NCBI RefSeq assembly: GCF_004010195.1
Contig: NC_057718.1
Coordinates: 49,112,021-49,176,020, forward strand
DNA: 64,000 nucleotides
Direction of reading: 5' to 3'
DNA from: Chiloscyllium plagiosum
Lineage: Eukaryota
In this document: positions 5,913-54,723 of the stretch, piece after piece
How the letters are laid out: each line of letters opens with the position of its first letter
How positions within the stretch are numbered: the first letter of the stretch is position 1
Made by a program: the position numbers and the translations under genes
Notes under the pieces: model-generated
Databases searched by the model: none
What the model was told of the DNA's origin: nothing
Seen by the model: only the letters and a program-made list of their open reading frames with translations

Positions 5913-5980
5913 CTATTTTCCTGCTCCTTGAATGCTGCCTGAACTGCTGTGCTTTTCCAGCACCACTCTAATCCAGAACC
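5913..5980 (+). mobile_element. PLE tail fragment (family A)
   Basis: cctgctccttgaatgctgcctgaactgctgtgcttttccagcacc; acctacc on both sides. Confidence 0.7.
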
Positions 5981-7136
5981 TACCTACCAATAACTATCCA
6001 GTCATGTCACATTCAATGTGGTCTTGACTTTGCCAACCTCTTGTGGAGTCTTGTTAATAATAGTGTAGAATGACCCTAATTTTGAGACCAGACAGAGACT
6101 CCATTGTCTATTTAACATGTTAGAACCGCCTCAAAGAACAAGTTAGATTAATCAGACATGGTTTACCCGTCACACATTTAAATTTTACTCTGACCTACTG
6201 CAAATTATTTGGATGTTCGGTCACTGCTTGTCAGGACACATTCAAATAACACCCCAAATTCATGCTAAACTGATGGATCTGAAGTTGCCCATTTTCTCCC
6301 ACCTTTTCTAATGGAGTGACATTTTCCAAATAGAATTCTGAAATCTAAGATTTAGAAAAATGACTTGCGGACCTGAAATTTTCAGACCTGTTTTCTTTAA
6401 CATCCTGAAGTGGAACTCACCAGCTTTGAGAGATTTGTCTATCTTCAGTCACACTATTTTCTCCATTACCATTTTTCAGAAAAATTAGGCAAACTGAGCT
6501 CTAGTCCCTTACCATAGTGGAAACACCAGCAGTACAAGAGGTTCAAAATACCAACTGAATACCCACCATTCTGGATTCTTCATCATCTTCAATGAAACCC
6601 TATTTCACACTTACTGTCCTTTTATCGAGTTAACATATAAAAACACATTTTTACTAATAGATTTTGTGTTCTTTACAAGCATTTTGCTGCATTTGATACC
6701 ATTCTAGTCAGTTAATTTCCACTTGATTTGCATTGTGTAAACCTGGTCTTTAAGGACGTCACTGCCTCATATCACTTGAACAGCAGAGTTGCTTAAAATA
6801 CAATAAAAAGAGCTTTGAATAAAAATCTTCCCCCGCCCTATAGTTTTTCTTATTTAAGAGAATTGTGAATGTTGGCCATTTGAAACTCAGCGGGTCTGAC
6901 AGCATCTGTAAAGACAGAAGCAGAGTTAACACTTCAAGTCCAGTGAACCTTAATCAGAACTAAAAGTAGCTGGGCTACTTACAGCATAAGTGGCAGTTAT
7001 GCTGATGACAGTGGAGGTGGGAATGGAATGTATGCAGAAGATGAAGGAGTGAGAAATCATATGCAAACAGAGTTTGCTCATAAGCCTAGAGAGTTGGGAG
7101 GGTGCTAACGTGAAGTGCAAATGATTGAGAATGCGT

Positions 7137-7302
7137 TGGTACAATGATAGTGTCTTGACTTTTGAGCAAAGAGGCCTGGATTCCGGAATAGAGTGGCGCT
7201 GGAAAAGCACAGCAGTTCAGGCAGCATCCGAGGAGCAGGATTCAAGTCCAAACTGCTTCAGAGGGATGTAATAACATCACTGAACATGTCGATTAGAAAA
7301 AT
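7137..7302 (+). mobile_element. Short tRNA-derived SINE-like element, split by a PLE tail (7184-7237)
   Basis: B-box-like ggattcaagtcc, body gtaataacatcactgaac...gattagaaaa; ggattc duplicated around the nested insert. Confidence 0.55.
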
Positions 7303-7351
7303 TCTGAACTCCCTGTAAGCAGACAGACATTGAATCTGTGCCTAGGATCTT

Positions 7352-7452
7352 ATGATACAGTGGTATTGTCTCTACCTCTAGGCCAGGAGATTTGAATTCA
7401 AGTCCCACCTGTCCCAAAGATTTTAAATACCTGAACAGGTTGATTGAAAAAA
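7352..7452 (+). mobile_element. Short tRNA-derived SINE-like element (second copy)
   Basis: cagtggtattgtctctacctctaggccaggag...aattcaagtcccacctg...ctgaacaggttgattgaaaa. Confidence 0.55.
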
Positions 7453-8259
7453 ACGTTTTTAATACTATGGTTATTTTGGTTTTGCACATGTGTAGCCTAA
7501 CAGATGAATATGCAGTGCTCTGAGCAGCCCATACATAAACTCCTATGGGTTTGGGGGGAAGGTAATGAGTGAAGAAGAGAGTGTGTTCATGGTTCTGAAA
7601 CTGTTAAACTCAAGTCCCGAGGCGATAAAATGTACCTCATAGTGGGTGCAAGATGAGATGCTATTCTTCCAGCTTACATTGAGCTTCACTGGAATACTGC
7701 AGCAGACCCGAGACAGAAATGCTGGTCAGAGAATACAGTGGTGTCTTGAAGTGGAAGGCAACTGAAACTCGAGGTCATTTTAAAGGATAGAGTGGAAGTA
7801 GTCTGTAAAGCAATCACGTAGTCAGCATTTCATCTCCCTATTGTGAAGGGAGATTACATTCTGTCCATAAATATGACGCTGAACTTCCAGCTGACCACCA
7901 CTGCAACACCCCATTGTATTCCCAGGTCAACCTTTCTCAGAGCTGCTGCAGTTATCCTGGGGAAAGAAAGCATTACCTTCCACCTAGTTACCATATAGCC
8001 TTCAGGGCTCAAACATGGAGTGTAACAATTTCAGAAAATGCACACACTCCTCAGTTTTCACTACCTTCCCCCAAACCCTCCAGCGTCCTGTTAGGTTTGG
8101 GCTGCTCGAGCACAGCCAACCCATTTATAACCATTTATATTTTACACTGGCACCTTTCTAAGAATTATCTCAGTCTCAGATTATCCTCAGTAATCTCTAT
8201 TTGCTAATCCTTTTCTTCTCTCTGTCTAGGCACGGTGTATTCTAAATTTCCACTCGAGA

Positions 8260-8985: not shown

Positions 8986-10184
8986 ATATCTTGTCATCTT
9001 TGCAAAATCTTTGTGCTTCCAAAAGCAGGACATTCGGAATAGGCCACACTTTGTCTGACCTATCACCGAACCAATGGCTTCTGGATTTACTGTGACCAAT
9101 TATCTTTCCATTTGAGTTGGTCTTTTATCATTTACAAAGTATTCCCCAATGTTCCTGCTTTGATAAGTGTTGTACCACACTCATCATGTAGTTTATAATG
9201 TCTTTGCACATTTTCCAAAATGAGGCCTCTTTCTTGACGGTGGTAGTCTGTCAAATTTTTCAGATCATGCTCTGCAGCTAACCAACAGGAGGAAGCATGC
9301 TGTAGTGAGACCAGACAGGCATATTATCACTTTTCCATTGTCCTTGAAACAAACAGCACTGGCAAAAGTGCTCCACCTAGCAGCCTGGCTAAAACTGGCA
9401 GATTTTAAATCCCAACTGTTGCAGGCAGATTGGAGTGACAAACCACTTTAGGACTCAAACCCACATCAATTTGTGGGGAAGGTCAATGCTGCAACTGCTG
9501 AGCTGCTTTGCCTTTGCTACTGTAAATGCCATCAATACTGCTCACTCCTTACGTGATAAATCTACGAAATTGAAAAATACATATACTGCACTGCATTCGA
9601 ACGAAACAAGGTCAATATCATTAAGCCAATGTCTCTAATTATGCTGCATTGGAGATTATGTTTGCCATGTAATCAGGACCTTTCAGAAGTTGTTCATATC
9701 TGCAGACCATGCATGAATCATCACTAATGGTCTCTTTCCCCCCTCAATTTCTGTGCTAGTAAAGCAGTCATGCACACTAGCCGGGGTGACGTGCTACACA
9801 TACTGTATTCGTTTGCAGGATGTTGCCCTGCGCTCCTGCAATGTGACATTTCAAAACAGGCATTTTCATTCAATAAGCAGAATTGAAAAACAACACCGTT
9901 TTCACGTCAAAGTCAATCGCTTTATGCATTCCACGTGCAGGCTATGCAACTAAAAATGCTTAAAATGGATCGAGCCTTGAAACGAACCGATTTAGTTCCG
10001 CAGGCTGCGCCGTTCACAAATTACTACCAACTCCTGGCGACTTTTGCTTTTCGAAGCAAAACTGTGAAGGCAGCGAATCTCTCTGTGCCTGCTTTATACT
10101 TGACCCTAACAACAACTCTGGAAACCTCCGATCGTTAAAAAAAAAATAACTTCCTTATTTTAGAAAAAAAAATGAAAGGTCTAC

Positions 10185-11106
10185 CTTTTAAAACCAGCGG
10201 ATCCTTGCCTTCTCGTTTCAACGATTCCAGCACTATGTGGAGTGGCTGAGAGGGCAGCACCCGGTTGGGCTCAATAGTGTTCTCATCATAAACTATTATC
10301 TCCTTGGAGAATATCCTTTTATAGGAGTCCTTGCCTTCCCTGCAGGAGATGAGATCCAAGACGGTGATCTTGCCCTGCTGCAGCCTCCTCCTGCTGATCT
10401 TGTCCGAGCAGTTGATGTGGACGGCTCCCTGGATGTGGCTCTTGTTGTATTCCATGAAGGGGCGACAGTCGATGATGACCGGACCCTGGCTCTGAGACGG
10501 GGGGCCCTTGATGCCGCCGCTTTTGGTCAGTTTCTTGGCCAGCTCGGCCGGGGGGATGGTGCGGACGGCCGCAGCGGCCGGAGGGGACGGGCTCCCTCCG
10601 ACTCCGGGAGCCGGGGGGCTGGCAGAGCCGCCGTTCTCATTGCCGCTCACCATCGGGCTGCCGGCGCACGAAGGGCAGCCGGGTTTGGTGGCGGAGGCAG
10701 CAGCAGCAGCAGCAGCAGCCGCCGCTGGGGCTGGTAGAGGGTGGCTGCCGCCCACCACCGAGCCCGGGCTCGGGTCGCCCTTGTTGGGGGGGTAGGTGCT
10801 CACCGTGCAGCAACTAGCGCCGCTGCATCCGCAGGACAGGGAGCGCACCGAGCCGTTAGATGATGGCATATACGGAAAGTTGCCGCTTCGGGACGGGAGC
10901 GGAGCCGCCGCCTCCGCCAGGCTCTGAGCTTTCGGATGGCCAGCTGCCGGACTCACCGCTCCGGGACGAGAAGGAGGAGGAGGAGGAGGAGGTGGTGAAG
11001 CCGCCACGTAGGTGTGATCCAAACGGAGATGGAGCTCCTGCGGTCTGACCGGCCTCGGCAATGCCACCACCCCAACAATCCGTTCGTCTAGAGGGGATGG
11101 AGGCAT
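10185..11106 (-). CDS. DUSP10: Dual specificity phosphatase 10 (MKP-5), first coding exon (N-terminal extension + rhodanese/MAPK-binding domain); later exons outside window
   Basis: Translation MPPSPLDERIV...RPVRPQEL...YMPSSNGSVRSLSCGCSGASCCTV...GPVIIDCRPFMEYNKSHIQGAVHINCSDKISRRRLQQGKITVLDLISCREGKDSYKRIFSKEIIVYDE...LVLK(G) matches vertebrate DUSP10. Similarity ends at a phase-1 donor AAAG|GTAGAC at 10185/10184. Confidence 0.97.
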
Positions 11107-11153
11107 CAGGATGATGTTGATGAGCCCTGCTGGCGATCCGTGGAGGAAATGGA
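11107..11153 (-). other. DUSP10: 5' UTR part of DUSP10 exon 2
   Basis: Acceptor ttgatcccgtttcAG| with AG at 11155-11154 and a CTGAC branch-like motif about 20-25 nt upstream; 47 nt precede the ATG. Confidence 0.7.
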
Positions 11154-11525
11154 CTGAAACGGGATCAAATGTACTGTCAGCATCAGAGCGGAGGGAGGGG
11201 AGGGGAGAGCAATAAATTCAGAGGCACGCATTGGTTATTTCTGCCGCAAATAGAAGGGGATCGCAACTAAAAATAAACTCGAGGCACGGGCGCCTTCATT
11301 GGGCAACCTGGCGGACCGACTTTTTTTTTTAAAAAAAAGAGAAAATATAAATCAACAAACTGCTCGCTTATTCTCTGGGTGAGGTGCTTGCAATTTAAAG
11401 TCCAAGTTGAGCAGCAACTTTGTGCGGAACTGGGGTTTCACTCCGCATCCGCTGCAAGAGGCCATTGAGAAAAGAAATGTACTCACATCACAAAGTGCAG
11501 CTCCTCCCGTTCTCTTGGCACTTAC

Positions 11526-11635: not shown

Positions 11636-11653
11636 GCTTTAATTCAGCTACAC

Positions 11654-11995: not shown

Positions 11996-12286
11996 CCGGG
12001 ACCAGGTCAGCCAGTACCATCCGAGTGAGTGTGAACAGGGACAGTACCAATAGAGTGAGTGTGAACAGGGTCATAAACCTAGAGTCAGTGTGAACAGGGA
12101 CAGTACCAATAGAGTGAGTGTGAACAGGGTCAGTACACCTGGAGTCAGTGTGATCAGGGACAGTACGATCAGAGTGAGTGTGAACAGGGTCAGTACTCCT
12201 AGAGTAAGTGTAAACATGGCTAGTACACCCAGAATCAATGTGAACATGGCCAGTATCATCAGAGTGAGTGAACAGGGTCAATACAC

Positions 12287-12400
12287 TTTTGCCCGAAACG
12301 TCGATTTTGCTGCTCGTCGGATGCTGCCTGAATTGCTGTGCTCTTCCAGCACCACTGATCCAGAATCTGGTTTCCAGCATCTGCAGTCATTGTTTTTACC
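12287..12400 (+). mobile_element. PLE tail insertion (family A) with 9-bp TSD
   Basis: ttttgccCGAAACGTCgatt... flanked by tcaatacac at 12278-12286 and 12401-12409. Confidence 0.8.
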
Positions 12401-12432
12401 TCAATACACCCAGAGTCAGTGTGAATAGAGTC

Positions 12433-12554
12433 AGGAGAAAGTGAGGACTGCAGATGCTGGAGATCAAAGTTGACGGTGTCGTGCTGGAAAAGGTCAGGCA
12501 GCATCCGATGAGGATGATAAACAATGATTTGGGCCTCAGCTCTTGATCAGGAAT
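12433..12554 (-). mobile_element. PLE tail insertion (family A) with decayed hammerhead motif
   Basis: ggagaaagtgaggactgcagatgctggagatc...; reverse complement starts attcCTGATcAagagctgaggccc. Confidence 0.7.
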
Positions 12555-13499
12555 GAGCAGGGCCAGTACAACCAGAGTCAGTGTGAACAGGACCAGTACA
12601 CCCAGAGTCAGTGAACAGGGTCAGTAACCCAGAGTCAGTGAACAGGGTCAGTACACCCAGAGTCAGTGTGAACAGAGCCAGTACACCCAGAGTCAGTGTG
12701 AACAGAGCCAGTACACCCAGAGCCAGTGTTAACAGAGCCAGTATACCCACAATCAGTGTGAACAGGGCCAGTACAACCAGAGTGAAAGCAGCGAGAGTCA
12801 ATGTGAACAGCGTCAGTGGACGTGCAAGCAAAGCCAGTGAAACAAGGGCCAGTGCTGCCGGGACAGTTTTAATGAAAAGGAACAGCCAAGTCATCTCAAC
12901 CTGTTTTCCCCTTCGCACCCATTTGGTTACTCATTAAGAAATTGCACTCCTGTTTCGAAAACAGGAAGAAATCATTCAATACAGTTCCAAATGTGCAATA
13001 TTCCGCAACACTTACTAGTTGGAATTTTGAAGATAAACCAGACAGCAAAACAAAAACAAGGCAACCGGGTATTCCTCCCCAGCCTGTATTAAGTAACACC
13101 TCGAAGTTGTGCTGCCCTCAGCAGCATACGGCACAGCATATGGTGTTTGCAAGCAATTAAAAAAAAGCCCGCCAATGTTGCACTGGGAACTTTGAATTGG
13201 ACTTGACACGAATTCACTAGCAAAACCTGTAAAGTACAGCAAAAACAAAACGATGTGTCGAGCTGGAAATGATACTTTCTAAAACTTTTTTTGTTGTTTG
13301 AATTTGGTGGCAAATCTTATGGAATATGTTAAAAGAATCTGTGAATGGTTGGGTTAACGACGATGGGAACGAACACATGGCACGATGTCATTATTTAAAT
13401 CAAAGATTAAGCATGTCGTCGGAGATCATTTAACTTTTGCATGAAATCGTTTCGACATAGTTTATTCTTCCCACTACGAAAACATTTCACTAAACTGTA

Positions 13500-14844: not shown

Positions 14845-15672
14845 AAATAGCACTGTCTTATTCATCTACAATACACTGCTCCAGGCTAACTTAATACTTA
14901 TGACTTATTGATTTTTGAGACGATTTGTAGCTCAGGTTGAGATTTTGGATGTAGGTTTGCTCACTGAGCTGAAAGGTTCATTTCCAGACGTTTTATTACC
15001 TTACTAGGTAACATCTTCGGTAGATCTCACACGAAGCAATACTGAAAATTCCTGCTCTCTATTTATATGTTTGGGTTTCTTTGGGTTGGTGATCGCATGA
15101 GGTTCACTGAAGATGTTACCTAGTAAGGTTATGACTTATATTTTTTAAGTTTAATCAAGAGACATATCCCAATAAAACATATAATCAAGAAAGAGCCCAC
15201 TCTACACACGACTGCAGACTTACTGTAAGGCCACACTTAAAAGTAGCACTTATCTGTATCTATGCTGTGGCCTCTCCCAAACAGGTTCCTCCGAGATCTG
15301 TTGTGAATTTCACTGTTTGTTAGTTTTCCCAGATGCAGTCCGATGTCCAGCGATACATTAATTCAAAAAGCAAAGGCAGTAACTGCACAGGTTCACTGCT
15401 GTGTCAGGGAGCAGTATGAGTTTCTCTCTCTCTCTCTCTCTCTCTCCTGCACTGCCTGACCATTGCTGCCTTTGTCTGGTCCTCTCCCTTTTAAAAAGCT
15501 TCTGTTTTGACTTTTTTTTTCCTCCAAAGTTCCAAAACAATGCAACAGCATATAAAACAGTAATTGCTGCTCCTGGAATTCGAGGAAATCGCCTCCAACA
15601 ACTAAAATACCTCAAAAAAGGAGCAACCTGTTGCAGCCAGAAATTTTTCCCATCCTCCATCTTGGATTACCA
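14845..15672 (-). mobile_element. Inverted 5' segment of the adjacent CR1 LINE
   Basis: Directly homologous to 39130-39688, the 5' end of the minus-strand CR1. Confidence 0.8.
14909..15128 (-). mobile_element. PLE insertion (family C) with inverted hammerhead-like repeat and 11-bp TSD
   Basis: ttatgacttat at 14898-14908 and 15129-15139; gaagatgttacctagtaaggt occurs in both orientations. Confidence 0.8.
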
Positions 15673-16853
15673 ATTAGGGGGTGATGGATTCTCAGGGGAA
15701 TATAGCACCAACAGCCAAGTTCCTGGTATCAAGACTAGCTCTAATGCAACGAGAGGTACATTGGGTTCCAAGAGATCAATTGTGTTAGGGGACTCTCCAG
15801 TCCGAGGAACATAAAGACAATTCTGTGGCAGCTGCAAAAAATCAGAATGGTGTGTTGCCTCCCTGGTACCAGGATCAAGGATGGCTCAGTGAGGGTGCAG
15901 AATGTTCTCAAGGGGGAGAGGGGCCAGCAGGAGGTCATTGTCCACATTGAAACCAATGACATAGGAAGCAAAAAGGATGAGATTCTTAAGGGAGATTATA
16001 GGGAGTTAGGCAGGAATTTAAAAAGGAGGTCCTCGAGAGGAGTAATATCTGGATTACTCCTGGTGCTACAAAACAGTGAAGGCAGGAATAGGAGGATGGA
16101 GAAGATGAATGCATGGCTGAGGAGCTGGTATGGAAGAAGGATTCACTTTTTGGATCATTGGAATCTCTTCTGGGTTAAAAGTGAACTGGCACGAGAAGGA
16201 CGGATTGCACCTAAATTGGAAGGGGACTAATATACGGCAGGGAGATTTGACAGAGCTGCTCGGGAGGACTTAACAAGTAAGGTGTGTGTGTGTGTGTGTG
16301 TGTTGGGGGGGGGAGGGTGTGGGCAGGAAGATAGTGAGGAAAGAGATCAATCTAAGACTGGTACAGTTGAGAAAAGAAGTGAGTCAAACAGTCAGAGCAG
16401 GCAGGGACAAAGCAGAGAATAAGATAGGACTGATAAATTACACTGCATTTATTTCAATGCAACAGGGAAGGCAGATGAACTCAGCGCATGGTTAGGAACA
16501 GGGACTGGGAATAGCAAATACAGAAACATGGCTCAGGGATGGAAAAGACTGGCAGCTTAATGTTTCAGGATACAAATGCAACAGGAAGGACAGAAAGGGA
16601 AGCAAGAGAAGAGGGGGAGTGGTGTTTTTGATATGGGATAGTATTTCAACTGTACTGAGGGAGGATATTCACGGAAATACATCCAGAGAAGTTACTTGGA
16701 TTGAACTGAGAAATAAGAAAGGGATGATCACCTTATTGGGATTGTGTTTTATAGACCCTCTCATAGTTAGCAGGAAATTGAGAAGCAAATTTGTAAGGAG
16801 ATCTCAGTTATCTGTAAGAATAATAGGGTGGTTATGGTAGGGGACTTTAACTT

Positions 16854-16979
16854 GAAGAAAGTGAGGACTGCAGATGCTGGAGATCAGAGCTGAAAAATGT
16901 GTTGCTGGAAAAGCGCAGCAGGTCAGGCAGCATCCAAGGAGCAGGAGAATCGACGTTTCGGGCATAAGCCCTTCTTCAG
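16854..16979 (-). mobile_element. PLE tail insertion (family A) with intact hammerhead core and 13-bp TSD
   Basis: gggactttaactt (16841-16853) / gggattttaactt (16980-16992); insert absent from the paralogous CR1 at ~27352. Confidence 0.85.
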
Positions 16980-16980
16980 G
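16948..16980 (-). ncRNA. Minimal type-I hammerhead ribozyme motif
   Basis: CUGAAGA-A-GGGC(UUAU)GCCC-GAAA-C-GUC; palindromic ACGU replaces stem III. Confidence 0.7.
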
Positions 16981-24370: not shown

Positions 24371-24371
24371 C

Positions 24372-40230: not shown

Positions 40231-40635
40231 AAAATACAAATGGAAAGGCTGAGGCAGCAGGGAAAATTGTCGAAGGAATCACAAATAAATTGAGCAAAGT
40301 CTGCACAGATATGTATTCCAGCAATAAAGTTTCAACTTTGATCTCCAGCATCTGCAGACCTCACTTTCTCCTCAAACATGTATAAGACAATCCCTCAATA
40401 GAGAAACACACCTACTAAAGGCCTGGAAAGTAGTCCAGTTCAAGGACTAATGCACTAAAACTATTATTCCAATAGCAAAACATTCACTGAGGCCAGAAGC
40501 AGTAGCAGGCATGTGTGAAAAAGCAGAACACCAAATTTTGTTTTGACAAAACCGCTGAACTATTGCCAGAGTTGAGCGGTAGAGAGCTAGTCAAGTACAA
40601 ACCTTCAAATTATCAATCAAAGTCAGCCCATTTTG

Positions 40636-41070: not shown

Positions 41071-41211
41071 TGCACAGTGGTTCAGTGGTTAGCACTGCTG
41101 CCTCACAGCACCAGGGACTGAGGTTTAATTCCAGCTTGGGCGACTGTCTGTGTGGAATTTGCACATTCTCCCTGTGTCTGTGTGGGTTTCTTCCCACAGT
41201 CCAAAGATGTG
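41071..41211 (+). mobile_element. HE1 SINE 5' half (part of a local duplication)
   Basis: Near identical to 41567-41707, including its upstream flank. Confidence 0.85.
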
Positions 41212-41566
41212 ACCTGGGACCTTTGCATAGCAGTTTTCCCTTCAATCACACAAAAGAGAAGTGAATAACTAGATATACCATCACAATTGCAGGCACATGC
41301 CTGACTGGAAAAATGTTCCTCAACTGCAGATAACTGATCAGGAAGATACAAGTTAATCATCTGTACAGTCCACAGACTAACTATCATACCTTGAGGTCCA
41401 CAGCATCCCACGTGCAGAGAAGAAACCACAGCAACAGAACATGATGCAGAAATGACATGCCCAGTGAAGGTACTTCACCCAGATGAGTAGCTAACAACAA
41501 CATGCAAACATATGTATAAGAAACAACTTAAACATTATATATATATATATATATACACAATACATA

Positions 41567-41850
41567 TGCACAGTGGTTCAGTGGTTAGCACTGCTGCCTC
41601 ACAGCACCAGGGACTGAGGTTTAATTCCAGCTTGGGTGACTGTCTGTGTGGAATTTGCACATTCTCCCTGTGTTTTTGTGGGTTTCTTCCCACAGTCCAA
41701 AGATGTGCAGGTCAGGTGAATTGGCCATGCTAAATTGCCCATTGTGCATTAGTCTGAGGGAAATGGGTCTGGTTGGGTTACTCTTTGGAGGGTCAGTGTG
41801 GACTTGTTGGGTTGAAGGGCCTGTTTCTACATTGCAGATAATGTAATCTA
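41567..41850 (+). mobile_element. HE1 SINE
   Basis: Head, V-domain and tail present. Confidence 0.92.
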
Positions 41851-42949: not shown

Positions 42950-43035
42950 AAAATCAAAAGAACTGCGGATACAGGAAATCAGAAACAAAAACAGAAATTG
43001 CTGGAAAAACGGAGCAACTCAGTAAGGATGTATAA
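42950..43035 (-). mobile_element. PLE tail fragment (family B)
   Basis: gaaatcagaaacaaaaacagaaattgctggaaaaac. Confidence 0.6.
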
Positions 43036-43116
43036 AGGGAAACGAAATGTTGATGGAAGTAACAAAACTGGATTAGCTCCAAAAGATGAGCAGAACTCAG
43101 CTTGGATATGTCTTTG

Positions 43117-43200
43117 ATGAAGAGCTTTTGCTGAAATGTCAATTCTCCTGCTCTTCGGATGCTGCCTGACCTGCTGTGCTTTTCCAGCACACACTCTCGA
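43117..43200 (+). mobile_element. PLE tail insertion (family A), decayed hammerhead motif, 16-bp TSD
   Basis: cttggatatgtctttg (43101-43116) / cttggatttgtctttg (43201-43216). Confidence 0.8.
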
Positions 43201-45849
43201 CTTGGATTTGTCTTTGGGCCATAGTGGCAAACATCTACAGCTGTTAAATTAAGTCAGAAAGGAAATAACAGAGGTTCTGGCTGCAAACTTTCTGATGGAT
43301 GTAGTCTGGGAAACTGGAGAACAGTGTGTGTCCTTTTTTCAGAGAAAAACAACCTGGAAATCAGTTGTCACATGAATTATGGGTAAACTTTCAAAATCCA
43401 TAAATTCAGAAAAGATTTCTGACCAATTGGAATCTGTTATTTAATGACAACCAGTGTGAATTTGTTAAAGATTTGTTGTGCTTGACAACTTCAAAGATTT
43501 ACAAATAAGTGGCCAAACAGCCAGATAGCTAGACGACAGTATGTGTGGATTTTCACATGATATCTCAGGATCTAGCTTATCCTTATATGGCAAGAATGTG
43601 CTTTCTGGCCTTACTGAATAGCAGTCCTCATTCAGAATCAGGCAGATTAAGCTTTCTCTTCCACCATTGTTCAAGAACAGTAAAGCCAGTGTATCACTCA
43701 TTCTGTTATGCTGGTGAGCAGAGATCAACACATTCACCAGCCAATCAATTCAACCTGTGACCTTGATGGCCTCAAAGGCTTAATACCATACTAGGTGATA
43801 AATTTCCCAATGACTCATTCAGAAAGATGATATCTCTCAATTTCAATACTTTTCTGTATTCCTACCCACTCACTTTATGGGTAATGGGAAAAAATTTGCT
43901 GAGATGGTAAGTTCTTCAGACCACAGTTCAATTGTGCTCCATCTGATGTTATCAGGATTTCACTGGTAAATTTAAAATTGGAGCTGTTGGTAATCCAAGG
44001 CCAAGGGAATATCTTCCTTTAATCAGACATTTCCATGCTCATGGCCCTGATTCTCTGAGGGAAAACAGAATACAAATGCATAACTTTGGAGAAGTTCTAA
44101 TACACAGCCTACAAATTAAAGCTGTTCTATTATTAAACCACAGATTACAAGGTACTAATTTTTACTATTTCGGATAATACAATTTAAAAATATTTGCATA
44201 CCTTAATAGCAGTTCCTGCTCAAATGTATTTCATCTTGCCGTTTAAATTGCTGTACTCTTCCCATACAATAGCTTGTTCTCCACAGTGATTCTTTGAGAT
44301 TACTGAATGTTATGTTACAAAATCACGAATGAAAATAAAACAAGAAAAGGATGCAGGAATAATTGTCATTTACTGTGGATAATAATGTAAAAGGCATGTT
44401 TTTAAACTGGCTGCCTGTTATACCTCCTGCCTAATATTCCCATCCAATGCCTTGAAGGAGAATCAAATTGGTCATATGGACAGCCACTGCAATATTGATT
44501 TTACAATATTATATAAATTTAAAATGACCACTACATTTTTTTAAAATCATTCACAAATAAATGTGCAGAAGCAAAGATGGGGGACAGAATGGCCCAGGAA
44601 CTAATGGACACAAATGAATGCTTCCTACTGAAAAATATGAACGGCTGTGCATTGTCAGCTGCTCAGTGCACTGGGCTGTCTGTCAGCGAGTCTGCACACA
44701 ATTTAGGACAGTTTCAAAAATATGTTATGGCGCATGCCGAAATCTATACAACGGACAGTCTTTCAGGGCTATGCTGTAGGACAGCTGATCCATCCAAGAA
44801 TTGGGAGCTCTGTTTGTGGATGTCAATCATTTGCTCAGTGAGAACTCTGATAAAGTGTGTAACTTGACACACAATAGTCTGGATGGAACTAACGCAGAGA
44901 ATAGATGTTTGACTACTGTCAGGAAATGAGCCTCAGGTCTGTAGATCATAATTTCTTCCATTACACATCAAATGTATAATTAGTCAATGTAGACCATTTC
45001 TGAGAATGCATAGTTTGGTTCTGTAGGAATATGTGGGTGCACCTGAAAGATTCTTGCAAATCTATTGAAATTAAGAGAAGTAACTTCTTGCTTTACTGCC
45101 TCCAAAGTGAAAAAATTTCAATGTGTTTGTGATAGCAAAGAGTATGTTTGTCACCTGCTTGTTTCAGGTTGCACGGTGTATTAACTTATATTGCTATCTT
45201 ACCTGTTGTTGACGTAATGACCTTACGGCTGTAAAATTTCGAGCAACAGTTATATCTAGTTATATCTAGAGCAACATAAAATAAATTTGTGACTTGTTGA
45301 TACTGGTACAGAAGACATACAAAGCTCTAATAGCCTTCATGTGTTAAGGTTAGAGGCACTGTACATAGTGCTCTATTGAGGAAAGGTCTGATGTTTTGAT
45401 CTAATACACTTATTTGAAGTAAGGCCTCATTTGTCATAAAATTTGTTTCTGTTGACAAAAGTAATTCAAACCCTTGTAACTGAATGCCAACAACTTTTAC
45501 TAAAAAGAGACAGTATACAAGAAACAGTAAGTGAGGACCTCTGTGGAACTCTAGACACTCCCACAGATCTGATGTCATTATGATGTAATTATTCAAGTGT
45601 CCATGTTAACCCTTTTCTCCACATCACCCCTCAAGTCTTTATGCCCAATTATTATTTATTCTATTTACACATCTTTCTACTCCTCTCCTGAAGCAACCTC
45701 ACCCATCCATCCATCTATCCACCCATCCACACACACACACAATAAGTGGTGGGGATTGTGAAGGCTTTGATTTCTAAAACAAATTTGCATCTCCTTTCTT
45801 TGGCTAGTTGATGCATATACTTTGAAGACTGTGAGCAGTAGCTTGGTGA

Positions 45850-46299: not shown

Positions 46300-47950
46300 C
46301 CTAACCCAATCCTACTTTCATGTTCGATTCCTCTCATCATAAAGGTAAGCGCCCCATTAGCCTTCCTGTTGAAAACTGATGCAAAGTATCTATTCAGATC
46401 CTCGTTCTTTTTGTTCCCAATTGCTACTTCCCCAGTCTCATTTTCCAACAGTCAACTTTTGCCAGTCTCTTACCTTTTATATATCTAAAAAACTTTTTCA
46501 ATCTTCTTTTATATTACTAGCTACCTTACCCTCATACTTCATCTTCTCCACGCTTACTGCCTTTCAGTTATCATCTGCTGGTTTTAAAGTCTTCCCAATC
46601 CTCTAGGTTCCCACTAATCATCATCACATTGTGTGCTTTTTTTAATGCTGTCCTTAATTTTCCTGGTCAGCCATGGTTGCCTCATTCTCCCTTTAGTATG
46701 TTTCTTCTTCCTTGGGATGAATTTCTGCCTTATCTTCTAAATTACCCCTAAAATCCCCTGCCATTGTCGGTGCACCATCTTCCCTGCTAGGCCCCCTTTC
46801 TAATCAAGCTGGCTAGCTCCTCCCTCATGTCTTTGTAATTACCCTTACTCAATTTTTAAATCTGATTCCAGCTTCTCCCTTTCAAACTGCAAGACGAATT
46901 CTATCATATAATGGTCACTGCCGTTGAGGGATTCCTTTATCTTAAGCTTCCCAATCAAGTCTGGTCCCAGCATGATACAAGTCGAGCCCAGCCCATCGGA
47001 ACAATCTCTCCTTCTCCAGAACTGGTGCCAATGTCCAAATGATTAAAAGTTGAAGAGTGAGGTGTTGGAAAAACACAGCCGGTCAGGCAGCATCCGAGGA
47101 GCTGGAGAATCGATATTTTGAGTATAAGGAATGAGGCTCCAAATAATTCAAGCCCATTTCTCCTGAATCAATCTTACAGCCACAAGTTTACCCCTTTAAT
47201 CTTGTTAACCCTGTACCAATTATCTCATGGCTCAGGTTCACATCCAAAGATTATTACCTTTATGGTTCTGCTTTTTAATTTAGTCCTTAGCTGCTCACAT
47301 TTCCTCAGCAGAACCTCTTTCCTCGTTCTGCCTGTATTGTGGGTATCTACCTGGACTATGACAATTAATTCTTTCCCTAGCCATTCCAAGTTCTTCTGCA
47401 GTCCAGGTGTGGGCTGAACCTGGGTACCAGAAAGACAACACAACCTTTGGGACTCTCGATCTTGGCCATAAAGAACAGTGTCTATTCCCCAACTTTACTA
47501 CTCCTGATTACAACTACATTTCTCTTATTTTCCCCTTTTCTGGAATTGCTCCCTGTACCACAGTGCTTTGGTCAGTTTGCTCACCGTCCCTATAGCTCCT
47601 TCTCTCATCCACATAGGGAGCAAGAATTTCAAACCTGTTAGACAAGCTGAAAGTCTGAGGCTCCTTTAGCACTACCTGCTAGATCACTCTACCTGTCTCG
47701 CTCATAGTCACACCCTCCTGTCCCAGCCCACTGATCAAATTTGAGGTAGTTAATCTAAGGGAGGTGACACCTCCTGAAATGCAGTGTCCAGTTAACTCTG
47801 CCCCTCCCTGATGTGTTGCAGTGTTCAAAGAGCATCATCTCTGAGTCTGAGTTCCTCAAGCAAGCAATACTTGCTCCAGATGTGGCCATTATGAACCACA
47901 ATGGGGTCCACCAGCACCCACGTCATACAGGTACAACACATTGCCTGGCC
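46300..47950 (-). mobile_element. Old CR1 LINE, internally deleted (ORF1 esterase + part of ORF2)
   Basis: CCLSGT...VQVDTHNTGRTRKEVL...LKSRTIKVII; NRYFASVF. Confidence 0.8.
47045..47137 (-). mobile_element. PLE tail insertion (family A) with 11-bp TSD
   Basis: tccaaatgatt (47034-47044) / tccaaataatt (47138-47148). Confidence 0.75.
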
Positions 47951-48700: not shown

Positions 48701-49487
48701 GAGTTTCTCTTTTGTTGGTTAGGAGCTTAAGGTGAGACAGATACCAGCCTGGAGAGATTTGTAACTTACAGGTAAAGTCACTTATTTCCATTTCCACGCA
48801 CCTTTCAACAGTTGCAAGGTCAAAGGCCCTTGAGCTGGTTATTTGACAGTCTTCCTGTCTAGATATGTGCTTGCTGTTTCTATACAAAATGGAAAGGAAC
48901 TTTCCAGTATTTGAATGAAATTACATTTATTGAAACTTAAAGCATTTACCCAAAGTGTTATTGAATAGGAATGTATTATGGTTTGCAAACCCTCCTCTTC
49001 TTTCTTCTTTAACTCTGAAGATTGCACATTACATGGTCAAACAAATCAATATTAAAAAGTTGAATGTTGGATGCAGAGATAATTAAGGAACAAACAGCAT
49101 CAGATATTCAAAACCTGTTCACAGTATTGTGGTATTTCTGTTACTGTTGACTGAAAACAGTAGCATTGAAAAGTGTGTACACAAGTTTAATGTATACTGA
49201 TAGTGGATATATACACAGGCTCAAAAAAAAGTTTCAGTGATCTCACAGAACTGCTATTGGAACTATTAGATTTCAGTGTTGTAACTCAGTCACACCCAGT
49301 TTCTGTTATGTCATTATTGTGAAGTCTGACAATTTCACACCGGAAGCTAATTTACCTGAGCCAAAGCATGCTAAACAATAAAGCAACTACATGTTTTACA
49401 AATTCTCTTGTAAAAATAAAAATTAGCTGAGTATAACATTAAGAGAATTGAATTAAAAGTAAATGTTTTAAAAGATGGACTTCACTC

Positions 49488-50312
49488 AATCTAGTCTACT
49501 GTATTCACTGCTCACAATGTGGTCACCTCTACACTGAAAAGACAAAGCACAGACTGGGCAACCACTTTTCAGAACGCCTACGTTCTCTCTGCAAAAAAGA
49601 CGCTGAGCTTCCTGTTGTCTGCCTTTTAACACACCACCGTGTTCCCTGGCCAACATTTCTGCATCAGCCTTGCAGCAGTGCTCCAATGAAGCTCAGAGCA
49701 AGCTGGAAGAACAACATCTTATTGTCTGCTTGAGGACACAGAAGTCTTCAGAATTCAATATCAAATTCAACAATTTTAGAGCCTGAGCACCTTTTCCCAT
49801 GTCCTTTCCCCAACCCCCACACACCACATCTTATCATCATATGGGCTGTTACACATAACCCATTCACTAATGGCCCCCATTAGCAGCTATTGTTTCTCCT
49901 AAACTCAATTCCTTTGTCTGTCCAACTGTGTTCTCTCTCTTTCTGGATTCCATTTCTACCTATTGTTTACTCCTCTCCTCCCCGCAACGCACCTTCAACA
50001 TATACAGAGGAACTTCGATTATCCTGCATTCGATTATCCGAATATCAGATTATCCGGCAAGATCGCAAGTACCCAATGCTTGGATAAACTATGTTATCTG
50101 GCATTGGATTATCCGGAATTTGTTTAAATGAACAAAATACTCCCCGCCCATGTCCTTCGGTTAATCAAGGTTCCTCTGTATACCAACCTTTTCCCAGCTA
50201 CAATCAGTTCCAAAGAAGGGTCACTAGACGCAAAATGTTAACTATGCTCTCTCTCCGCAGATGCTGCCAGATCAGCTGATTTTTTTTCCAGCAATTTCTT
50301 AATTTGTTTCTG
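49488..50312 (+). mobile_element. Penelope-like element 3' part: GIY-YIG endonuclease pseudogene + terminal region (family B) with decayed hammerhead motif
   Basis: NLVYCIHCSQCGHLYTEKTKHRLGNHFSERL...(frameshift)FNTPPCS...KLEEQHLI...FNIKFNNFRA*; agtt-CcaAAGA-a-gggtc-acta-gacgc-aAAA-t-gtt-aact at 50206-50243. Confidence 0.88.
50005..50178. mobile_element. pogo/Tigger-like MITE nested in the PLE
   Basis: TIRs cagaggaacttcgattatcc / ggttaatcaaggttcctctg (17/20 match); TA at 50003-50004 and 50179-50180. Confidence 0.85.
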
Positions 50313-50694
50313 AATCTCCCCTTATTAGATAATTTTCCAGCTGTGTCTGACTACTGGGGAGTTACATGTTTTAAAATATATGCCATTTTTGAAATGTTTT
50401 GAGTTATTTTTTCTTGTCAGTGATTGTGTGACTGAACAGTGGACTTCAGCCCAAGCTGACCTTTTATACAATAGTAGAGTCTCATAAGCACTTCTTGGTT
50501 TTACTTTACAGTTGCCTGCAGTCAATGGTAATTATACAAAACAATGTAAGCTTTTAGGCTTTTAATGATAAGGCATTTGAAGACATTTCCATAATGGGAA
50601 TGAAATAAAGAGAGAAGCTATTGTACCTTTTATTTCCTGTTTTCTCATGACAGTGATTTTAATCAATAGTTAGCCAGCAAAAAACATAAGTAAA

Positions 50695-50825
50695 ATTGAA
50701 GTAAAATGCTGTGGATGCTGAAAATCTGAAAAAAAACCCCCAAAGATGTTGAAAACACTTAGATGCTCTGTACAGAGACTGAAACAGAGTTAAGACTTGG
50801 GTTCAATGACCTTTCATTAGAATTG
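50695..50825 (-). mobile_element. PLE tail fragment (family B), decayed
   Basis: cagagttaagacttgggttcaatgacctttcattagaatt is the reverse of a degenerate hammerhead motif. Confidence 0.6.
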
Positions 50826-51149
50826 AGACAAAGTTGGAGATATTGTTGATTATAAACAAGCCAGAAGAGAAGTGGGTAAGAGGAACTGTTCCCAAATTAG
50901 TAAAACTGAGCATGTTTCTCCTAAATTAAAAAACTAAGATAGAAGTGATGGGAGATACTAAGGAGATTCTGAATCACCTGCAACCAAAATAAAAGAATGA
51001 TTTTATGAGCACCAGTATCTATTTTTTACAGACATAAATCAAATATTGTTGATGCTGGAAATGCAAAGTCTATTCTCAATTTATTTGATCTGCTCTGATT
51101 ACTGCTGCAGGTGATTTGGGCAAAATCAATTCTAGATCTCCACAGGCAG

Positions 51150-52850
51150 TTAGTCAGAAGCAGGGTGTCAGTTGGGCAGTCAAGAAAACCACAGGGTGCA
51201 TTTCACTCAAGAACAGATTTTCTCTGTGGGAAATCAATGAGAATGACAAGTTCTCTAGGGAGTGCAGCTTGAGCCCAACTGCACATGTAGGCGCAGAAAG
51301 AGAAGGAGAACAATAGTGTGAAGAAATTAAATAGTGAGGGTACATACAGACATTTCTGCAGCTGCAGATAACTTCAGCATTGTGCGTTGCCTCTCCAGGG
51401 CGGGGACAAGGATGTCACTCAAAGACTACAGGGCTTTCTGAATGGGGATGGTGATCAATCAGAAATCGTGGTCCACATTGGAACCAATGACATAGGTAGA
51501 AAGAGTGATGAGGTCAAAAGGAAGAATTTAGGGAGCTGAGTAACAAATTAAAAGCAGGATCTCGAAGATTGTAATCTCTGGATTACTCCCAATGCCTTGT
51601 GATTAGTGAGTATATGAATAGATTGATGGAACAGATTTTTTTAAAAAAGAAATTAGGAGACAAAGAGGGACCATGAGAAAACACTGGTGGGTCACATTAA
51701 GGAAAATTTAAAGGCATTTTATCTGTATATTATGTAAAAGAGAATAATCAGGGAAAAAAAATAGGACCCATTATGGACCAAGGTGACAATCTATGTGTGG
51801 AACCAGAAGATCTAGATGTGGTTTTAAATGAATACTTTGTAGCTATATTCAGTGTAGAGAAGGATGATGTAGTTAAAGAAGTAAGTGAGGGGGATTGTAA
51901 TATATTGGAACAAATTGTCATTGAGAGAGAGGAGTTATTAGAAGTTTAAATAGGCTTGAAAGTGGATAAATCCTCAGGGCCAGATGAGATATACCCCAGG
52001 TTTCTGTGGGAGGCAAGGAAGGATTTTGCAGGGACTCTGACATTAATTTTCAAAGCATCCCTGGCCACAGGAGGGATGCCAGAGGACTGCAGGACAGCTG
52101 ATGTACCATTTTTCAAGAAGGATGATGGGGTTTCTATAGGAATCGAGAAGCCAACGAGTCTAACTCTGTGGTTGGAAGCAATTGGAATAATTATGAGGGA
52201 GAGTTAATCTCCAGTTGGAGATATAAAGGTTAATCAAGAGTTGTCAGCATAGGGGAGATCAATGTCTAACATATATGATTGAATTGTTCGTGGAGGTGAC
52301 GAGGTGTGTGGATGGGGGCTGTACAGTTGATCTATTTCATATTGACTTTATTAAGGCTTTTTACAAGGTCTGTCATAGCAAACTAGTTAAGAAACTAAGA
52401 GCTCATGGGGCCCAGGGCAATTTAACAAAATTGGCTCAGTGACAAGAAGCAGAGGATGATGGTTGAAGGGTATTTTTGTGACTGGAAACCCTTTCCAATA
52501 ACATAACATTTGGTTCTGGTCCCTAGCTGTTTGTTGTGAACATTAATGATCTAGACATGAATATAGGATAGATGATCAGTACATTTGCAAATGACAGGAA
52601 TGTTGGTGGTTTGATAAATAATGACAAAGAAAGCTTTAGGTTATAGGACAATATTGATGGGCTGGTTCAGTTGAGTTGAACAGTGACAATGGAATTTAGT
52701 CCTGCAAAGTGTGAAGGGATGCAATTTGGGAGGAATAAGGGAAAGAAACACATGTTGAATGGCTAGGAAGTACAGGGGATCAGAGGATCTTATGCATGTC
52801 ATTAGATCCTGAAAAGAAGAAAGAAGGTTGTGTTAAGAAAGCGCAATGCA
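51150..52850 (+). mobile_element. Old CR1 LINE, internally deleted (esterase ORF1 + RT)
   Basis: VVHIGTNDIG, KVDKSSGPDEIYPRFL, DFIKAF, FAND. Confidence 0.82.
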
Positions 52851-54590
52851 ATTACTGGTACTGAGTCCAGAAGTGCCTCTCACATCAGAAAATTATCACA
52901 TGCCGCACAAAGAAACTCCATAGTGTAAGAGGGATATCTTGAGGTAGTAGCCCCAACAGACATAAATGTTGTACGAGGAACAATAATTTTAACAGAGTAG
53001 ACAGTGAAATAAAGACTACAAATCAATCCCAATCGCAAAGATTGAGTCACTGCCAGTAAACTTGAAGATAAACTAATAAGAATTGAAACAATGTTTGATA
53101 ATTGGAAAAAGTTTAGTTTATTCAGAGATAGCACATTAGGGTCAATCAGCCACATCACATAATGGATTTATATTGAAAAAACATGGGACTTATAAGGCTA
53201 AAGTAAAACTAGTTGCCTAGTTTTAGAGTATGACTAAATGTCACAGGTGCTAGACAGGAATCTTGTTGCTTGAAAAGTAAACACATAATTCTTCTTAACT
53301 ATTTTGGCCACGTGCTCGTGGGAGTGTAGGCTATTCAACACTAAAGCAGCATTATTGCAGGATAATACTTTACCAAGAGCAGTGTTTCTGAAATCATCCA
53401 AACAGCAACATATGCAGAAGGAAAGCTAATTTTACTTGTCAAAAATGTCTATGACCCATACGATATTTCCAGCATATGCTATTTTCCAATCAGGTTTTTG
53501 TTTTCTGAAAATAGGTTGTGTTCAAGAGCAGACCTACAATATATTTTGATGTAAAGGAAAGGATTGATCAAAGGAACTGTTTGGGCACGCTGATGACAAT
53601 TTATTCAAAGGAGACCTCCAAAGCTCACCAGAGGAAATGGGAGCAGGTGACCAGGGAGGCCAAATCCTGAACTCTGGCCTTGAGAATCTGGCAGCAATGT
53701 CACATTTGTAATGGCATTACAATGTATGGTCAAAATACATCTTCAAATTACATCTCCTGCCCTCCAGACCGTGAACATCTCCTATTGCTTCATGTACAAC
53801 ATCCTTGTCATTCAATCAAAGCAATCCTGGGGATTTAGGACTCAGTTCTATCGTTCAGACATTTCTCCCCAGTATACATTCCAATAACTCACATGCAAAA
53901 TTGGCTGATTCCACATACACCCAACTATTCAGTAATGGCAGGCACATCACCCAAATACAATGTGATATTCATTGATTTCTTCCGCTTCTCTTGCTTATCA
54001 AAATAGTCCATTACAGTAGAGTATAACGAGTGGAGGTCAGGGATGCCTGCACCTCCTGAACGACAGGAAGAGATGGTTCTCCACACAGCAAGACAATGGA
54101 GACAGCAGATTAGGTAACGTTTGGGATCCTGGCCTGTCCACTTCTTTTTGGCTGACCGGCCGCATCCTTTTTTAAAATTTTTTCTTCTTTAAAATTATTG
54201 TTATTTCATAATTTCACCTTTTGTGTCAAATTCATCCTTTCTTCTTCCTGCAGCTGAAGTGTGGCAGTTACAGTTGGACAGTCCCAAGTCCTTGGCAATT
54301 TCGATGGCCCCTGGTCCTCAGCGCTTCCCGTAGGTTCTGGTTCTTGGCAGTTTCAACGTGTCCGCAGTGCACAGTGCTTTTGGCAGGCCCCCGGTCCTTA
54401 GTGGTTTTGACAGGGCCCAGTCCTAGGCAGTTTCGACAGACCCATGGTTCTTGAGAGTTTCGAGAGGCCCGCCCCATTCTTGACAGTTGGCAAGGCCTCT
54501 GGTCCTCGGAAGTGACTGGTTTGTGAAACCAAGAGGCTGTGGAATGAACAAAAAATGATATTTGGCTTAACTTTGCCTTTTTTAAATATG

Positions 54591-54723
54591 ATTTGGAGAT
54601 GCCGGTGTTGGACTGGGGTGTACAAAGTTAAAAATCACACAACACCAGGTTATAGTCCAACAGGTTGAATTGGAAGCACACTAGCTTTCGGAGCAACACT
54701 CCTTCATCAGGTGATAGTCAGAC
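54591..54723 (-). mobile_element. PLE tail insertion (family D) with intact hammerhead core and 12-bp TSD
   Basis: tttttaaatatg at 54579-54590 and 54724-54735. Confidence 0.85.
54679..54713 (-). ncRNA. Minimal type-I hammerhead ribozyme motif
   Basis: CAC-CUGAUGA-A-GGAGU(GUU)GCUCC-GAAA-G-CUA-GUG: stem I CAC/GUG, stem II, palindromic AGCU in place of stem III. Confidence 0.75.

What the first reader, a model, noticed from the sequence alone, without database searches (positions are those of the whole stretch)
5913..54723. Window-wide set of ~55-220 bp PLE-terminal insertions from at least four families sharing one ribozyme architecture
Seen: family A at 5913, 7184, 12287, 12433, 16854, 40317, 43117 and 47045; family B at 1838, 6875, 42950, 50205 and 50695; family C at 14909; family D at 54591. 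Many have 6-16 bp flanking duplications (tcaatacac, ttatgacttat, cttggat.tgtctttg, tccaaat.att, ggattc). Where the 5' part is retained, each family shows a CUGANGA+1...GAAA-palindrome-UH motif, intact or decayed, with family-specific complementary stems. Inference: these termini behave like SINE-sized, ribozyme-defined mobile units at roughly one per 4-5 kb here.
Basis: partly seen in the sequence, partly recalled or inferred. Interest (0 to 1): 0.72.

Follow-up and report, generated by a model that had tools for sequence, protein, structure and literature searches.

The report
Truncated Penelope retroelement ends with hammerheads
These short repeats are real and very abundant insertions carrying a small hammerhead-ribozyme motif, and they are most likely ordinary cut-short tail ends of Penelope-like jumping genes, not a new ribozyme-defined mobile unit, because their starts do not fall at the predicted self-cutting site.

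Summary
All 15 listed copies exist. Only 2 of 15 keep a complete minimal hammerhead (A16854, D54591; 0.017 expected per shuffled window). Five flanking duplications beat chance, and two copies have empty sites in paralogous repeats. They read as 5'-truncated 3' ends of Penelope-like elements. B50205 ends an ~840-bp copy with a GIY-YIG remnant. Family A is homologous to B. A has two 3' ends about 32 nt apart, the known 'tail'. C carries an inverted 5' arm and an ATG at stem II, as in Anolis Poseidon. Genomic reads give about 70 A copies per Mb, no depth step at the predicted cut site, and a shared upstream continuation, so cleavage does not define the unit and 'SINE-like' is not supported. No ORF link was shown for C or D. 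One residual signal: 6 of 14 placeable 5' ends lie just upstream of the ribozyme core (targeted P 2e-4; about 0.08 if any window is allowed), possibly run-off from a transcript starting there. The kind is published (2013-2024), and this scan found it repeatedly on other DNA of this genome.

The parts
16854..16980 (-). Family A, best-preserved copy: intact minimal hammerhead (core starts 16979, predicted cut between 16952 and 16951), long 3' end with the 32-nt tail (16856-16887); 15-bp duplication 16839-16853 / 16978-16992; inserted in a CR1-like LINE
12287..12400 (+). Family A, starts in loop II, long 3' end; 9-bp duplication 12278-12286 / 12401-12409
12433..12557 (-). Family A, decayed core, starts about 7 nt upstream of it, long 3' end; inside a 30-bp tandem array
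5913..5977 (+). Family A, starts at the predicted cut site, short 3' end; 7-bp duplication (within chance by score)
7184..7237 (-). Family A, starts 3' of the ribozyme, short 3' end; 6-bp duplication (within chance by score)
40317..40372 (+). Family A, last 56 nt only (no ribozyme), long 3' end
43117..43200 (+). Family A, starts within the first bases of a decayed core, short 3' end; 16-bp duplication 43101-43116 / 43201-43216
47045..47137 (-). Family A, starts about 9 nt upstream of the core, core deleted, short 3' end; 11-bp duplication (borderline)
1838..1975 (-). Family B, CUGAUGA intact but the 3' half of the motif damaged; 7-bp inverted repeat centred just upstream of the core (short fold-back arm); long 3' end
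6880..6974 (-). Family B terminus, decayed core; likely the end of the GIY-YIG remnant at 7590-7781 (same strand, interrupted by SINE-like pieces and A7184; link by orientation and spacing only)
7590..8200 (.). Two head-to-head GIY-YIG C-terminal remnants (minus about 7590-7781, plus about 7790-8200)
   Evidence: (tblastx E 5e-11 to 49.5 kb)
42950..43022 (-). Family B, 3' part only (no ribozyme), long 3' end
49476..49786 (+). Broken GIY-YIG endonuclease C-terminus (one frameshift near 49625), ending in a stop, upstream of B50205
49787..50202 (+). Pyrimidine-rich 3' UTR of that copy, split by a 180-bp TA-flanked element with terminal inverted repeats (50003-50182)
50203..50318 (+). Family B terminus (B50205), decayed core, short 3' end
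50695..50825 (-). Family B terminus, decayed core, long 3' end; 5' boundary not determined
14909..15094 (-). Family C main arm: about 75-85 nt upstream sequence, hammerhead with 2 mismatches (core at 15020; stem II 7 bp, helix I 4 bp), ATG at 15014, 3' end 106 nt after the ATG
15095..15128 (+). Family C inverted 5' arm with intact CUGAAGA; whole unit flanked by an 11-bp duplication 14898-14908 / 15129-15139
54591..54723 (-). Family D, intact minimal hammerhead (core at 54710; stem II 5 bp, helix I 3 bp, AGCU palindrome), starts about 13 nt upstream of the core; 12-bp duplication 54579-54590 / 54724-54735

Best explanation
The copies are dispersed insertions with target-site duplications and a minimal hammerhead motif, and they are most likely dead 5'-truncated 3' ends (pseudo-LTR pieces) of several Penelope-like retrotransposon families. 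Inferred mechanism, by analogy with Anolis Poseidon (PMC11167929): the element's GIY-YIG domain nicks mildly AT-rich DNA; its reverse transcriptase starts inside the RNA at one of two sites about 32 nt apart, which gives the short and the 'tailed' 3' ends; it copies through the uncut hammerhead and usually stops within 60-140 nt; it sometimes adds an inverted arm or goes on into the 3' UTR and ORF. The hammerhead is carried along and does not cut out the unit. An excess of stops just 5' of the core is seen; its most likely cause (inferred, untested) is that many templates begin there.
For: ORF link: B50205 follows a GIY-YIG C-terminus on the same strand after about 240 nt of UTR (Atlas top hit GIY-YIG, score 0.95, recognition 3156). 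2 of the 3 GIY-YIG remnants seen in the window have a same-strand B terminus 400-650 nt downstream. A profile built from the 8 A copies ranks 4 of 5 B copies next (23.6, 18.9, 15.7, 11.4 bits; best of 10 shuffles 14.6); the B profile hits A16854 over positions 6-125 at 24.1 bits. Tail: 4 of 8 A copies end about 32-39 alignment columns short of the other 4; reads show a 'goes back 32' joint 16887 to 16856 in 148 and 166 reads, matching the 30-40-bp tail and its duplication in PMC8557442, PMC3846280 and PMC2377424. Inversions: C's arm, B1838's fold-back, and hundreds of opposite-strand joints at 16979-16980. C: predicted cut 28 nt and 3' end 106 nt after an ATG at stem II, against 26 and 111-118 in Anolis Poseidon. 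True insertions: empty sites at 27352, in 575 and 541 reads with 15 shared letters, and at 39187-39193 for C. Not cleavage-bounded: depth ratio 0.90 across the cut, like its neighbours; the cut is not among the six listed loose-end places of either raw run; 46,751 reads run past 16980 with a coherent consensus (agreement 0.53 against 0.38 at the 3' flank). Duplications are 68% AT (67 of 98 letters) against 59% for the window, P 0.03.
Against: No full-length element or RT was recovered: no whole genome was held, two protein searches with the GIY-YIG pieces found nothing, the HMMER search with C's 35-residue frame found 0 hits, Pfam did not name the GIY-YIG piece and the Atlas gave no hit for its second half. 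D has no ORF link at all and C only an analogy. The B6875 link is not supported by alignment (72, 16 and 34 of 300 shuffles scored as high). 0 of 8 A copies in the window extend more than about 10 nt past the core, fewer than smooth truncation predicts. Helix I of family A is weak (2 pairs, a mismatch, 1 pair; read). Self-cleavage was not tested.
Confidence: 0.85

Rival explanations
1. Run-off mini copies: the PLE transcript starts a few bases 5' of the hammerhead in the upstream pseudo-LTR; the protein binds the pLTR-ORF junction near that 5' end, starts reverse transcription there and runs off the RNA, giving a discrete 90-135-nt product. This refines the best explanation and does not replace it.
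For: 6 of 14 placeable 5' ends (A16854, A43117, A12433, A47045, B1838, D54591) lie between -15 and +3 of the core's first base; exposure-corrected P 2e-4 (4e-4 and 3e-5 for two ways of counting B50695). In reads at least 57% of peak depth reaches the CUGA box, while only a roughly estimated 27-42% of reads at the edge follow the main upstream consensus for 30 nt; in contigs that consensus decays after about 10 letters. Internal initiation and binding near the pLTR-ORF junction are published; PLE transcripts start in the upstream pLTR.
Against: If any 19-nt window is allowed, P is 0.08 (15 copies). The ends spread over about 16 nt and were placed by eye across four families. The read reference stops at 16980, so ends beyond it cannot be resolved, and the 27-42% is a lower bound because upstream subfamilies differ. 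In Drosophila Penelope the start site lies about 120 nt upstream of helix I (46 nt plus a 75-nt intron). No RNA data were examined.
Confidence: 0.35
2. One reading: SINE-sized units cut out by the ribozyme and mobilised as such in trans.
For: Very high abundance (about 70 A copies per Mb: depth 134,722 in 1,934 Mb of reads), short size, A5913 starts at the predicted cut, ribozyme-bearing SINE-like elements are known in Schistosoma.
Against: 1 of 14 5' ends at the cut; no depth step there; a cleaved unit would begin after UH and could not carry CUGANGA at its 5' end, yet many copies do; no B box in 4 copies scanned; B50205 and C extend upstream.
Confidence: 0.05
3. Monomers of non-LTR retrozymes: tandem units that go through circular RNA and reinsert.
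For: Head-to-tail joints of the 125-bp unit exist (48 and 46 reads; 50 contigs in X1). Retrozymes derive from pLTRs and occur in the one chondrichthyan sampled.
Against: Those joints are about 0.1% of reads at the edge (48 of 46,751); 0 of 15 window copies are tandem; unit ends vary and are not circularly permuted at the cut.
Confidence: 0.05
4. C and D are not PLE-derived, or the hammerhead match is coincidental.
For: No ORF link found for C or D; each has one copy here; Rfam is silent.
Against: Strict-motif null 0.017 per window; helices I and II pair with different sequences in C and D; C shows the inverted arm and the Poseidon-like ATG placement.
Confidence: 0.05

Closest known systems
Minimal hammerheads (min-HHR) in pLTRs of metazoan Penelope-like elements (Cervera and De la Pena 2014, PMC4209133)
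   Same: Type I motif with an extra base before stem II, G10.1-C11.1 pair, palindromic 15.2-16.2, short helix I, several consensus families per genome, mostly single copies spread through the genome and ascribed to truncated PLEs.
   Different: Abundance: about 70 per Mb for family A termini here against about 4,000 and 9,000 motifs per genome in coelacanth and Xenopus (different counting methods). Sharks are not among the vertebrates named in the parts read.
Insertion units of EN+ PLEs: 5' truncation, adjacent inverted copy, optional 30-40-bp tail (Craig et al. 2021 PMC8557442; Arkhipova et al. 2013 PMC3846280; Schostak et al. 2008 PMC2377424)
   Same: 5' truncation, head-to-head inversion, optional 32-nt tail, tail duplication, 9-16-bp target duplications.
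   Different: Copies are unusually short, and an excess of 5' ends at the upstream edge of the hammerhead is not described in the passages read.
Poseidon of Anolis carolinensis, PAc (Frangieh et al. 2024, PMC11167929)
   Same: For family C: ATG at the start of stem II, cut 28 versus 26 nt and 3' end 106 versus 111-118 nt after it. For A: two 3' ends. Uncut RNA as template; no reads ending at the cut.
   Different: No sequence match to PAc was tested; no such ATG frame could be tied to an ORF in A, B or D.
Non-LTR retrozymes (Li et al. 2026, 10.64898/2026.07.22.740005) and Schistosoma hammerhead SINE-like elements (review PMC6765202)
   Same: Short, non-coding, type I hammerhead, PLE-related.
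   Different: Those are tandem units (and Pol III-transcribed in Schistosoma); here tandems are about 0.1% of reads and no B box was found.

Membership tests
EN+ Penelope-like element terminus | Attached to a C-terminal GIY-YIG ORF (family B) | tested here: met
   B50205; B6875 by position only
EN+ Penelope-like element terminus | Attached to an RT/GIY-YIG ORF (family A) | tested here: inconclusive
   Indirect: homology to B and shared upstream continuation in reads; no ORF reached
EN+ Penelope-like element terminus | Attached to an RT/GIY-YIG ORF (families C and D) | tested here: inconclusive
   C frame search empty; nucleotide scans of viral contigs empty; ATG placement only
EN+ Penelope-like element terminus | Telomerase-like RT domain in a full-length partner | not testable with these tools
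   No whole genome held; no RT of this kind noticed in the window
EN+ Penelope-like element terminus | Optional 30-40-bp tail (two 3' ends) | tested here: met
   Family A: 4 of 8 short ends, 32-nt joint
EN+ Penelope-like element terminus | 5' truncation with adjacent inverted copy | tested here: met
   C14909, B1838, 7.6-8.2 kb remnants, opposite-strand joints
EN+ Penelope-like element terminus | Target-site duplication | tested here: met
   5 of 15 beyond chance; 2 empty sites; none convincing for B
min-HHR (type I) | CUGANGA, extra base, stem II, GAAA, palindromic pair, UH | tested here: met
   2 of 15 intact, C with 2 mismatches; in reads the best-supported variants inside the motif fall on N7, loop II and CpG sites (38 rows not shown)
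min-HHR (type I) | Helix I of 4-5 bp | tested here: inconclusive
   C 4 bp, D 3 bp, B 4 bp by eye, A 2 bp then a mismatch
min-HHR (type I) | Self-cleavage as dimer or with protein | not testable with these tools
   Needs an assay
SINE | Internal Pol III promoter (A and B boxes) | tested here: not met
   No B box in 4 copies scanned on both strands; A-box-like matches in D and none in the others
SINE | Fixed 5' end shared by full copies | tested here: not met
   5' ends from +75 to hundreds of nt upstream; only a loose cluster
Ribozyme-excised unit | 5' end at the cleavage site | tested here: not met
   1 of 14 copies; no depth step
Non-LTR retrozyme | Tandem units each with a complete hammerhead | tested here: not met
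   0 of 15 in the window; about 0.1% of edge reads
Poseidon or Neptune clade | RT phylogeny, Zn-finger-like linker | not testable with these tools
   No RT or linker sequence available; clade labels are not claimed

The most novel reading that the evidence does not exclude
Penelope-like elements in this genome mass-produce a discrete mini product: reverse transcription starts at the pLTR-ORF junction near the 5' end of the transcript and runs off an RNA end that lies just upstream of hammerhead helix I. Hundreds of thousands of 90-135-bp copies would then be a fossil map of the RNA start and of the two initiation sites, and a ready source of promoter-bearing pLTRs and retrozyme monomers.
Probability: 0.35. 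Interest if true: 0.5.

Novelty: new member of a known kind. Interest (0 to 1): 0.22.

Why it matters
As it stands it adds abundant families to a described class and shows, for family A, that genomic ends do not record ribozyme cleavage, in line with the 2024 in vitro result that uncut RNA is the template. If the pile-up of 5' ends at the upstream edge of the hammerhead holds genome-wide, it would give a testable handle on two open points of PLE biology: where the template RNA begins, and how pseudo-LTRs and retrozyme units arise.

Tried and rejected
Whole-genome counts: no genome held. Rfam: no hammerhead among 7 matches; the minimal form may simply fall outside its models. Pattern scans for ORF-linked copies: 0 matches in viral contigs for A/B, D and C; 81 metagenome and 67 prokaryote-genome loci for the A/B pattern, none of 148 extending beyond 44 bp of similarity, so chance. 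Protein searches: GIY-YIG halves gave nothing (1 and 3 candidates only, weak evidence); C's 35-residue frame gave 0 hits among 1.84 billion representatives and no Pfam family; Atlas had no usable hit for the second GIY-YIG half. Alignments of B upstream regions to each other were not significant, so an upstream extension of B50695 is not claimed and it was dropped from the 14-copy count. The depth step at 16894-16899 was not used to count short 3' ends, because part of it comes from subfamilies with a different linker (loose ends). Four 2-mismatch motif hits (50577, 63252, 52070, 36977) are within the shuffle expectation of about 2 and were rejected. Free folding of the two intact motifs recovered stem II only, as expected for a motif without a stable stem III; it is not evidence either way. 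Supplement search of PMC11167929 found no sequence to compare. Sequence look-ups in the scan's notes found nothing. Reads were laid on family A only; B, C and D have no genome-wide data here.


Full report
Setting. The window is vertebrate DNA: it holds a DUSP10 exon at 10135-11217 on the minus strand (E 2e-65), several CR1-like LINE pieces and tRNA-type SINEs (these two labels are from my own knowledge of the motifs). A shark-type host is suggested by my recall of such repeats and by the scan's earlier notes; I did not test the lineage. No whole genome was held, so genome-wide evidence comes from one laying of reads on family A.

Observation. All 15 listed copies exist. Read in the ribozyme's sense, they share their 3' ends and differ at their 5' ends. 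A strict minimal-hammerhead descriptor is met exactly by 2 of 15 (A16854, D54591), against 1 hit in 60 shuffled windows. C has two mismatches in its main arm, a 7-bp stem II and a 4-bp helix I, and an intact CUGAAGA in its inverted arm. No B copy passes; B's motif is visible only across decayed copies. Stems differ between families while keeping pairing, and the stem III palindrome is ACGU in A and C and AGCU in D. Rfam reports no hammerhead. Flanking duplications beat a null of 296 random pairs in 5 of 15 copies; A47045 is borderline; A5913, A7184 and A40317 are within chance by score; A12433 is in a tandem array; no B copy has one. Two insertions have empty sites: A16854 in a CR1-like paralog at 27352 and in 575 and 541 reads, and C in a paralog at 39187-39193.

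Link to Penelope-like elements. B50205 is not a 120-bp unit. It ends a copy that starts near 49476 with a broken GIY-YIG C-terminus, followed by a stop, about 240 nt of UTR (split by a 180-bp TIR element) and the hammerhead. The Atlas places the first half of that peptide with eukaryotic GIY-YIG clusters (0.95); Pfam and two word-based searches did not confirm it, and the second half had no Atlas hit. Related remnants lie head-to-head at 7.6-8.2 kb (tblastx E 5e-11), the minus one upstream of B6875; that link rests on strand and spacing, as UTR alignments were not significant. A and B are sister lineages: an A-only profile ranks 4 of 5 B copies next, 3 of them above the best shuffle, and the B profile covers A16854 nearly end to end. 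C matches Anolis Poseidon in layout: ATG at the start of stem II, predicted cut 28 nt and 3' end 106 nt downstream, against 26 and 111-118 nt; a search with its 35-residue frame found nothing. D has the motif and a 12-bp duplication but no ORF link.

Ends of family A. Four of 8 copies stop about 32-39 columns short of the other four, and reads show a joint that repeats 16856-16887, a 32-nt unit (148 and 166 reads). This is the optional 30-40-bp tail of PLEs, explained by two internal start sites of reverse transcription. Peak depth was 134,722 in 1,934 Mb of run X19, about 70 copies per Mb, or 1.7-3.1 x 10^5 for a genome of 2.5-4.5 Gb; X20 agrees, and contigs of a second organism (X5) hold the family in similar amount. 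Depth falls smoothly towards the 5' side (128.0k, 120.3k, 108.7k, 94.5k, 76.4k in successive 9-nt bins) with no step at the predicted cut between 16952 and 16951. The cut is not among the six loose-end places listed for either raw run (lowest listed 7,470 and 7,415 reads; 1,326 rows not shown). At 16980, 46,751 reads continue with a coherent upstream consensus. Opposite-strand joints at 16979-16980 number in the hundreds; head-to-tail joints of the 125-bp unit number 48, about 0.1%. Inside the motif, the best-supported variants fall on N7, loop II and CpG sites (38 rows not shown), which fits a conserved motif in active lineages with neutral decay after insertion.

The residual signal. Placing 5' ends by eye relative to the first base of the core, 6 of 14 fall between -15 and +3, 5 between +14 and +75, and 3 at -85 or beyond; B50695 was dropped as undetermined. 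The exposure-corrected P is 2e-4, and 0.08 if any 19-nt window is allowed (15 copies). Reads point the same way but cannot resolve it: at least 57% of peak depth reaches the core, and a rough decomposition gives 27-42% of edge reads following the main upstream consensus for 30 nt, a lower bound. I had this idea at about 10% before the look-up; notes e1-7858714 and e1-9807999 report the same pattern on other DNA and prompted the formal test. They are unchecked AI notes and are not counted as support.

Mechanism. Shown: dispersed insertions with duplications, two 3' ends, variable 5' ends, inversions, the motif, one direct ORF link. Inferred from PAc: nicking by GIY-YIG, internal initiation at two sites, copying of uncut RNA. 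Inferred and untested: that the excess of ends just upstream of helix I reflects run-off from a transcript that starts there. A structural block is a poorer fit, since it should stop the enzyme on the 3' side of the motif. Against run-off, the Drosophila start site lies about 120 nt upstream of helix I. An antisense, self-priming template has also been proposed for PLE inversions and is not excluded.

Comparison and literature seen. PMC4209133: parts 1-2 of 4 (results, discussion). PMC11167929: parts 1-2 of 4 and a supplement search without hits. Li et al. 2026 preprint: part 1 of 5, passages and the discussion; its supplements are closed and may list shark families. PMC8557442, PMC3846280, PMC2377424, PMC6765202, PMC4350176, PMC8455134: passages only. 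Lunse et al. (RNA Biol 14:1499) was seen only as cited in PMC6765202. Six searches turned up no paper on shark PLE termini or on 5' ends clustering at helix I; the library lacks most subscription papers, and Repbase and Dfam were not available.

Verdict. Real, abundant and well spotted, but a new member of a described kind: truncated PLE ends with minimal hammerheads. The SINE-like, ribozyme-defined reading fails its direct test for family A. The scan has reported the same system many times in this genome. Interest 0.22; the run-off variant has probability 0.35 and would merit 0.5.

Noticed in passing
window 10135-11217 (-): Large coding exon of a DUSP10 (MKP5) gene, with the rhodanese-like domain; many of the insertions may be intronic.
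   Followed up: partly
window 12014-12851: 30-bp tandem array that holds two family A copies in opposite orientation, their 3' ends about 32 bp apart (12400 and 12433).
   Followed up: partly
window 50003-50182: 180-bp element with TA-flanked terminal inverted repeats and internal GATTATCC repeats, inserted in the 3' UTR of the B50205 copy; looks like a Tc1/mariner-type MITE (label from knowledge).
   Followed up: partly
window 58985-59056 (-): tRNA-like sequence with a CAT anticodon ending in CCA (Rfam 30 bits; not called by ARAGORN), directly beside a SINE; likely a retroposed tRNA-Met copy.
   Followed up: no
window 40632-41856: SINE copies in inverted orientation forming a long fold-back, with a 170-bp 98% identical duplication 496 bp apart; could be a recent duplication or an assembly artefact.
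   Followed up: no
window 7130-7440: Nested tRNA-type SINE-like pieces; A7184 sits in a B-box-like motif of one of them.
   Followed up: no
window 15143-19764, 26588-29401, 35877-38843: Three long CR1-like LINE copies, 86-93% alike, two with runs of N inside (28131-28831, 37748-38465).
   Followed up: partly
window 16856-16980 (reads): Rare head-to-tail tandems of the 125-bp family A unit (48 and 46 reads, 50 contigs in X1): candidate retrozyme-type arrays elsewhere in the genome.
   Followed up: no
window 16889-16899 (reads): Family A has at least three subfamilies that differ in the linker before the tail, and at least two upstream sequences.
   Followed up: partly
window 44617-44669 (+), 21135-21164 (-): Weak hits of the family A profile (E 0.4 and 1.3), within the shuffle range; possibly further old fragments.
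   Followed up: no
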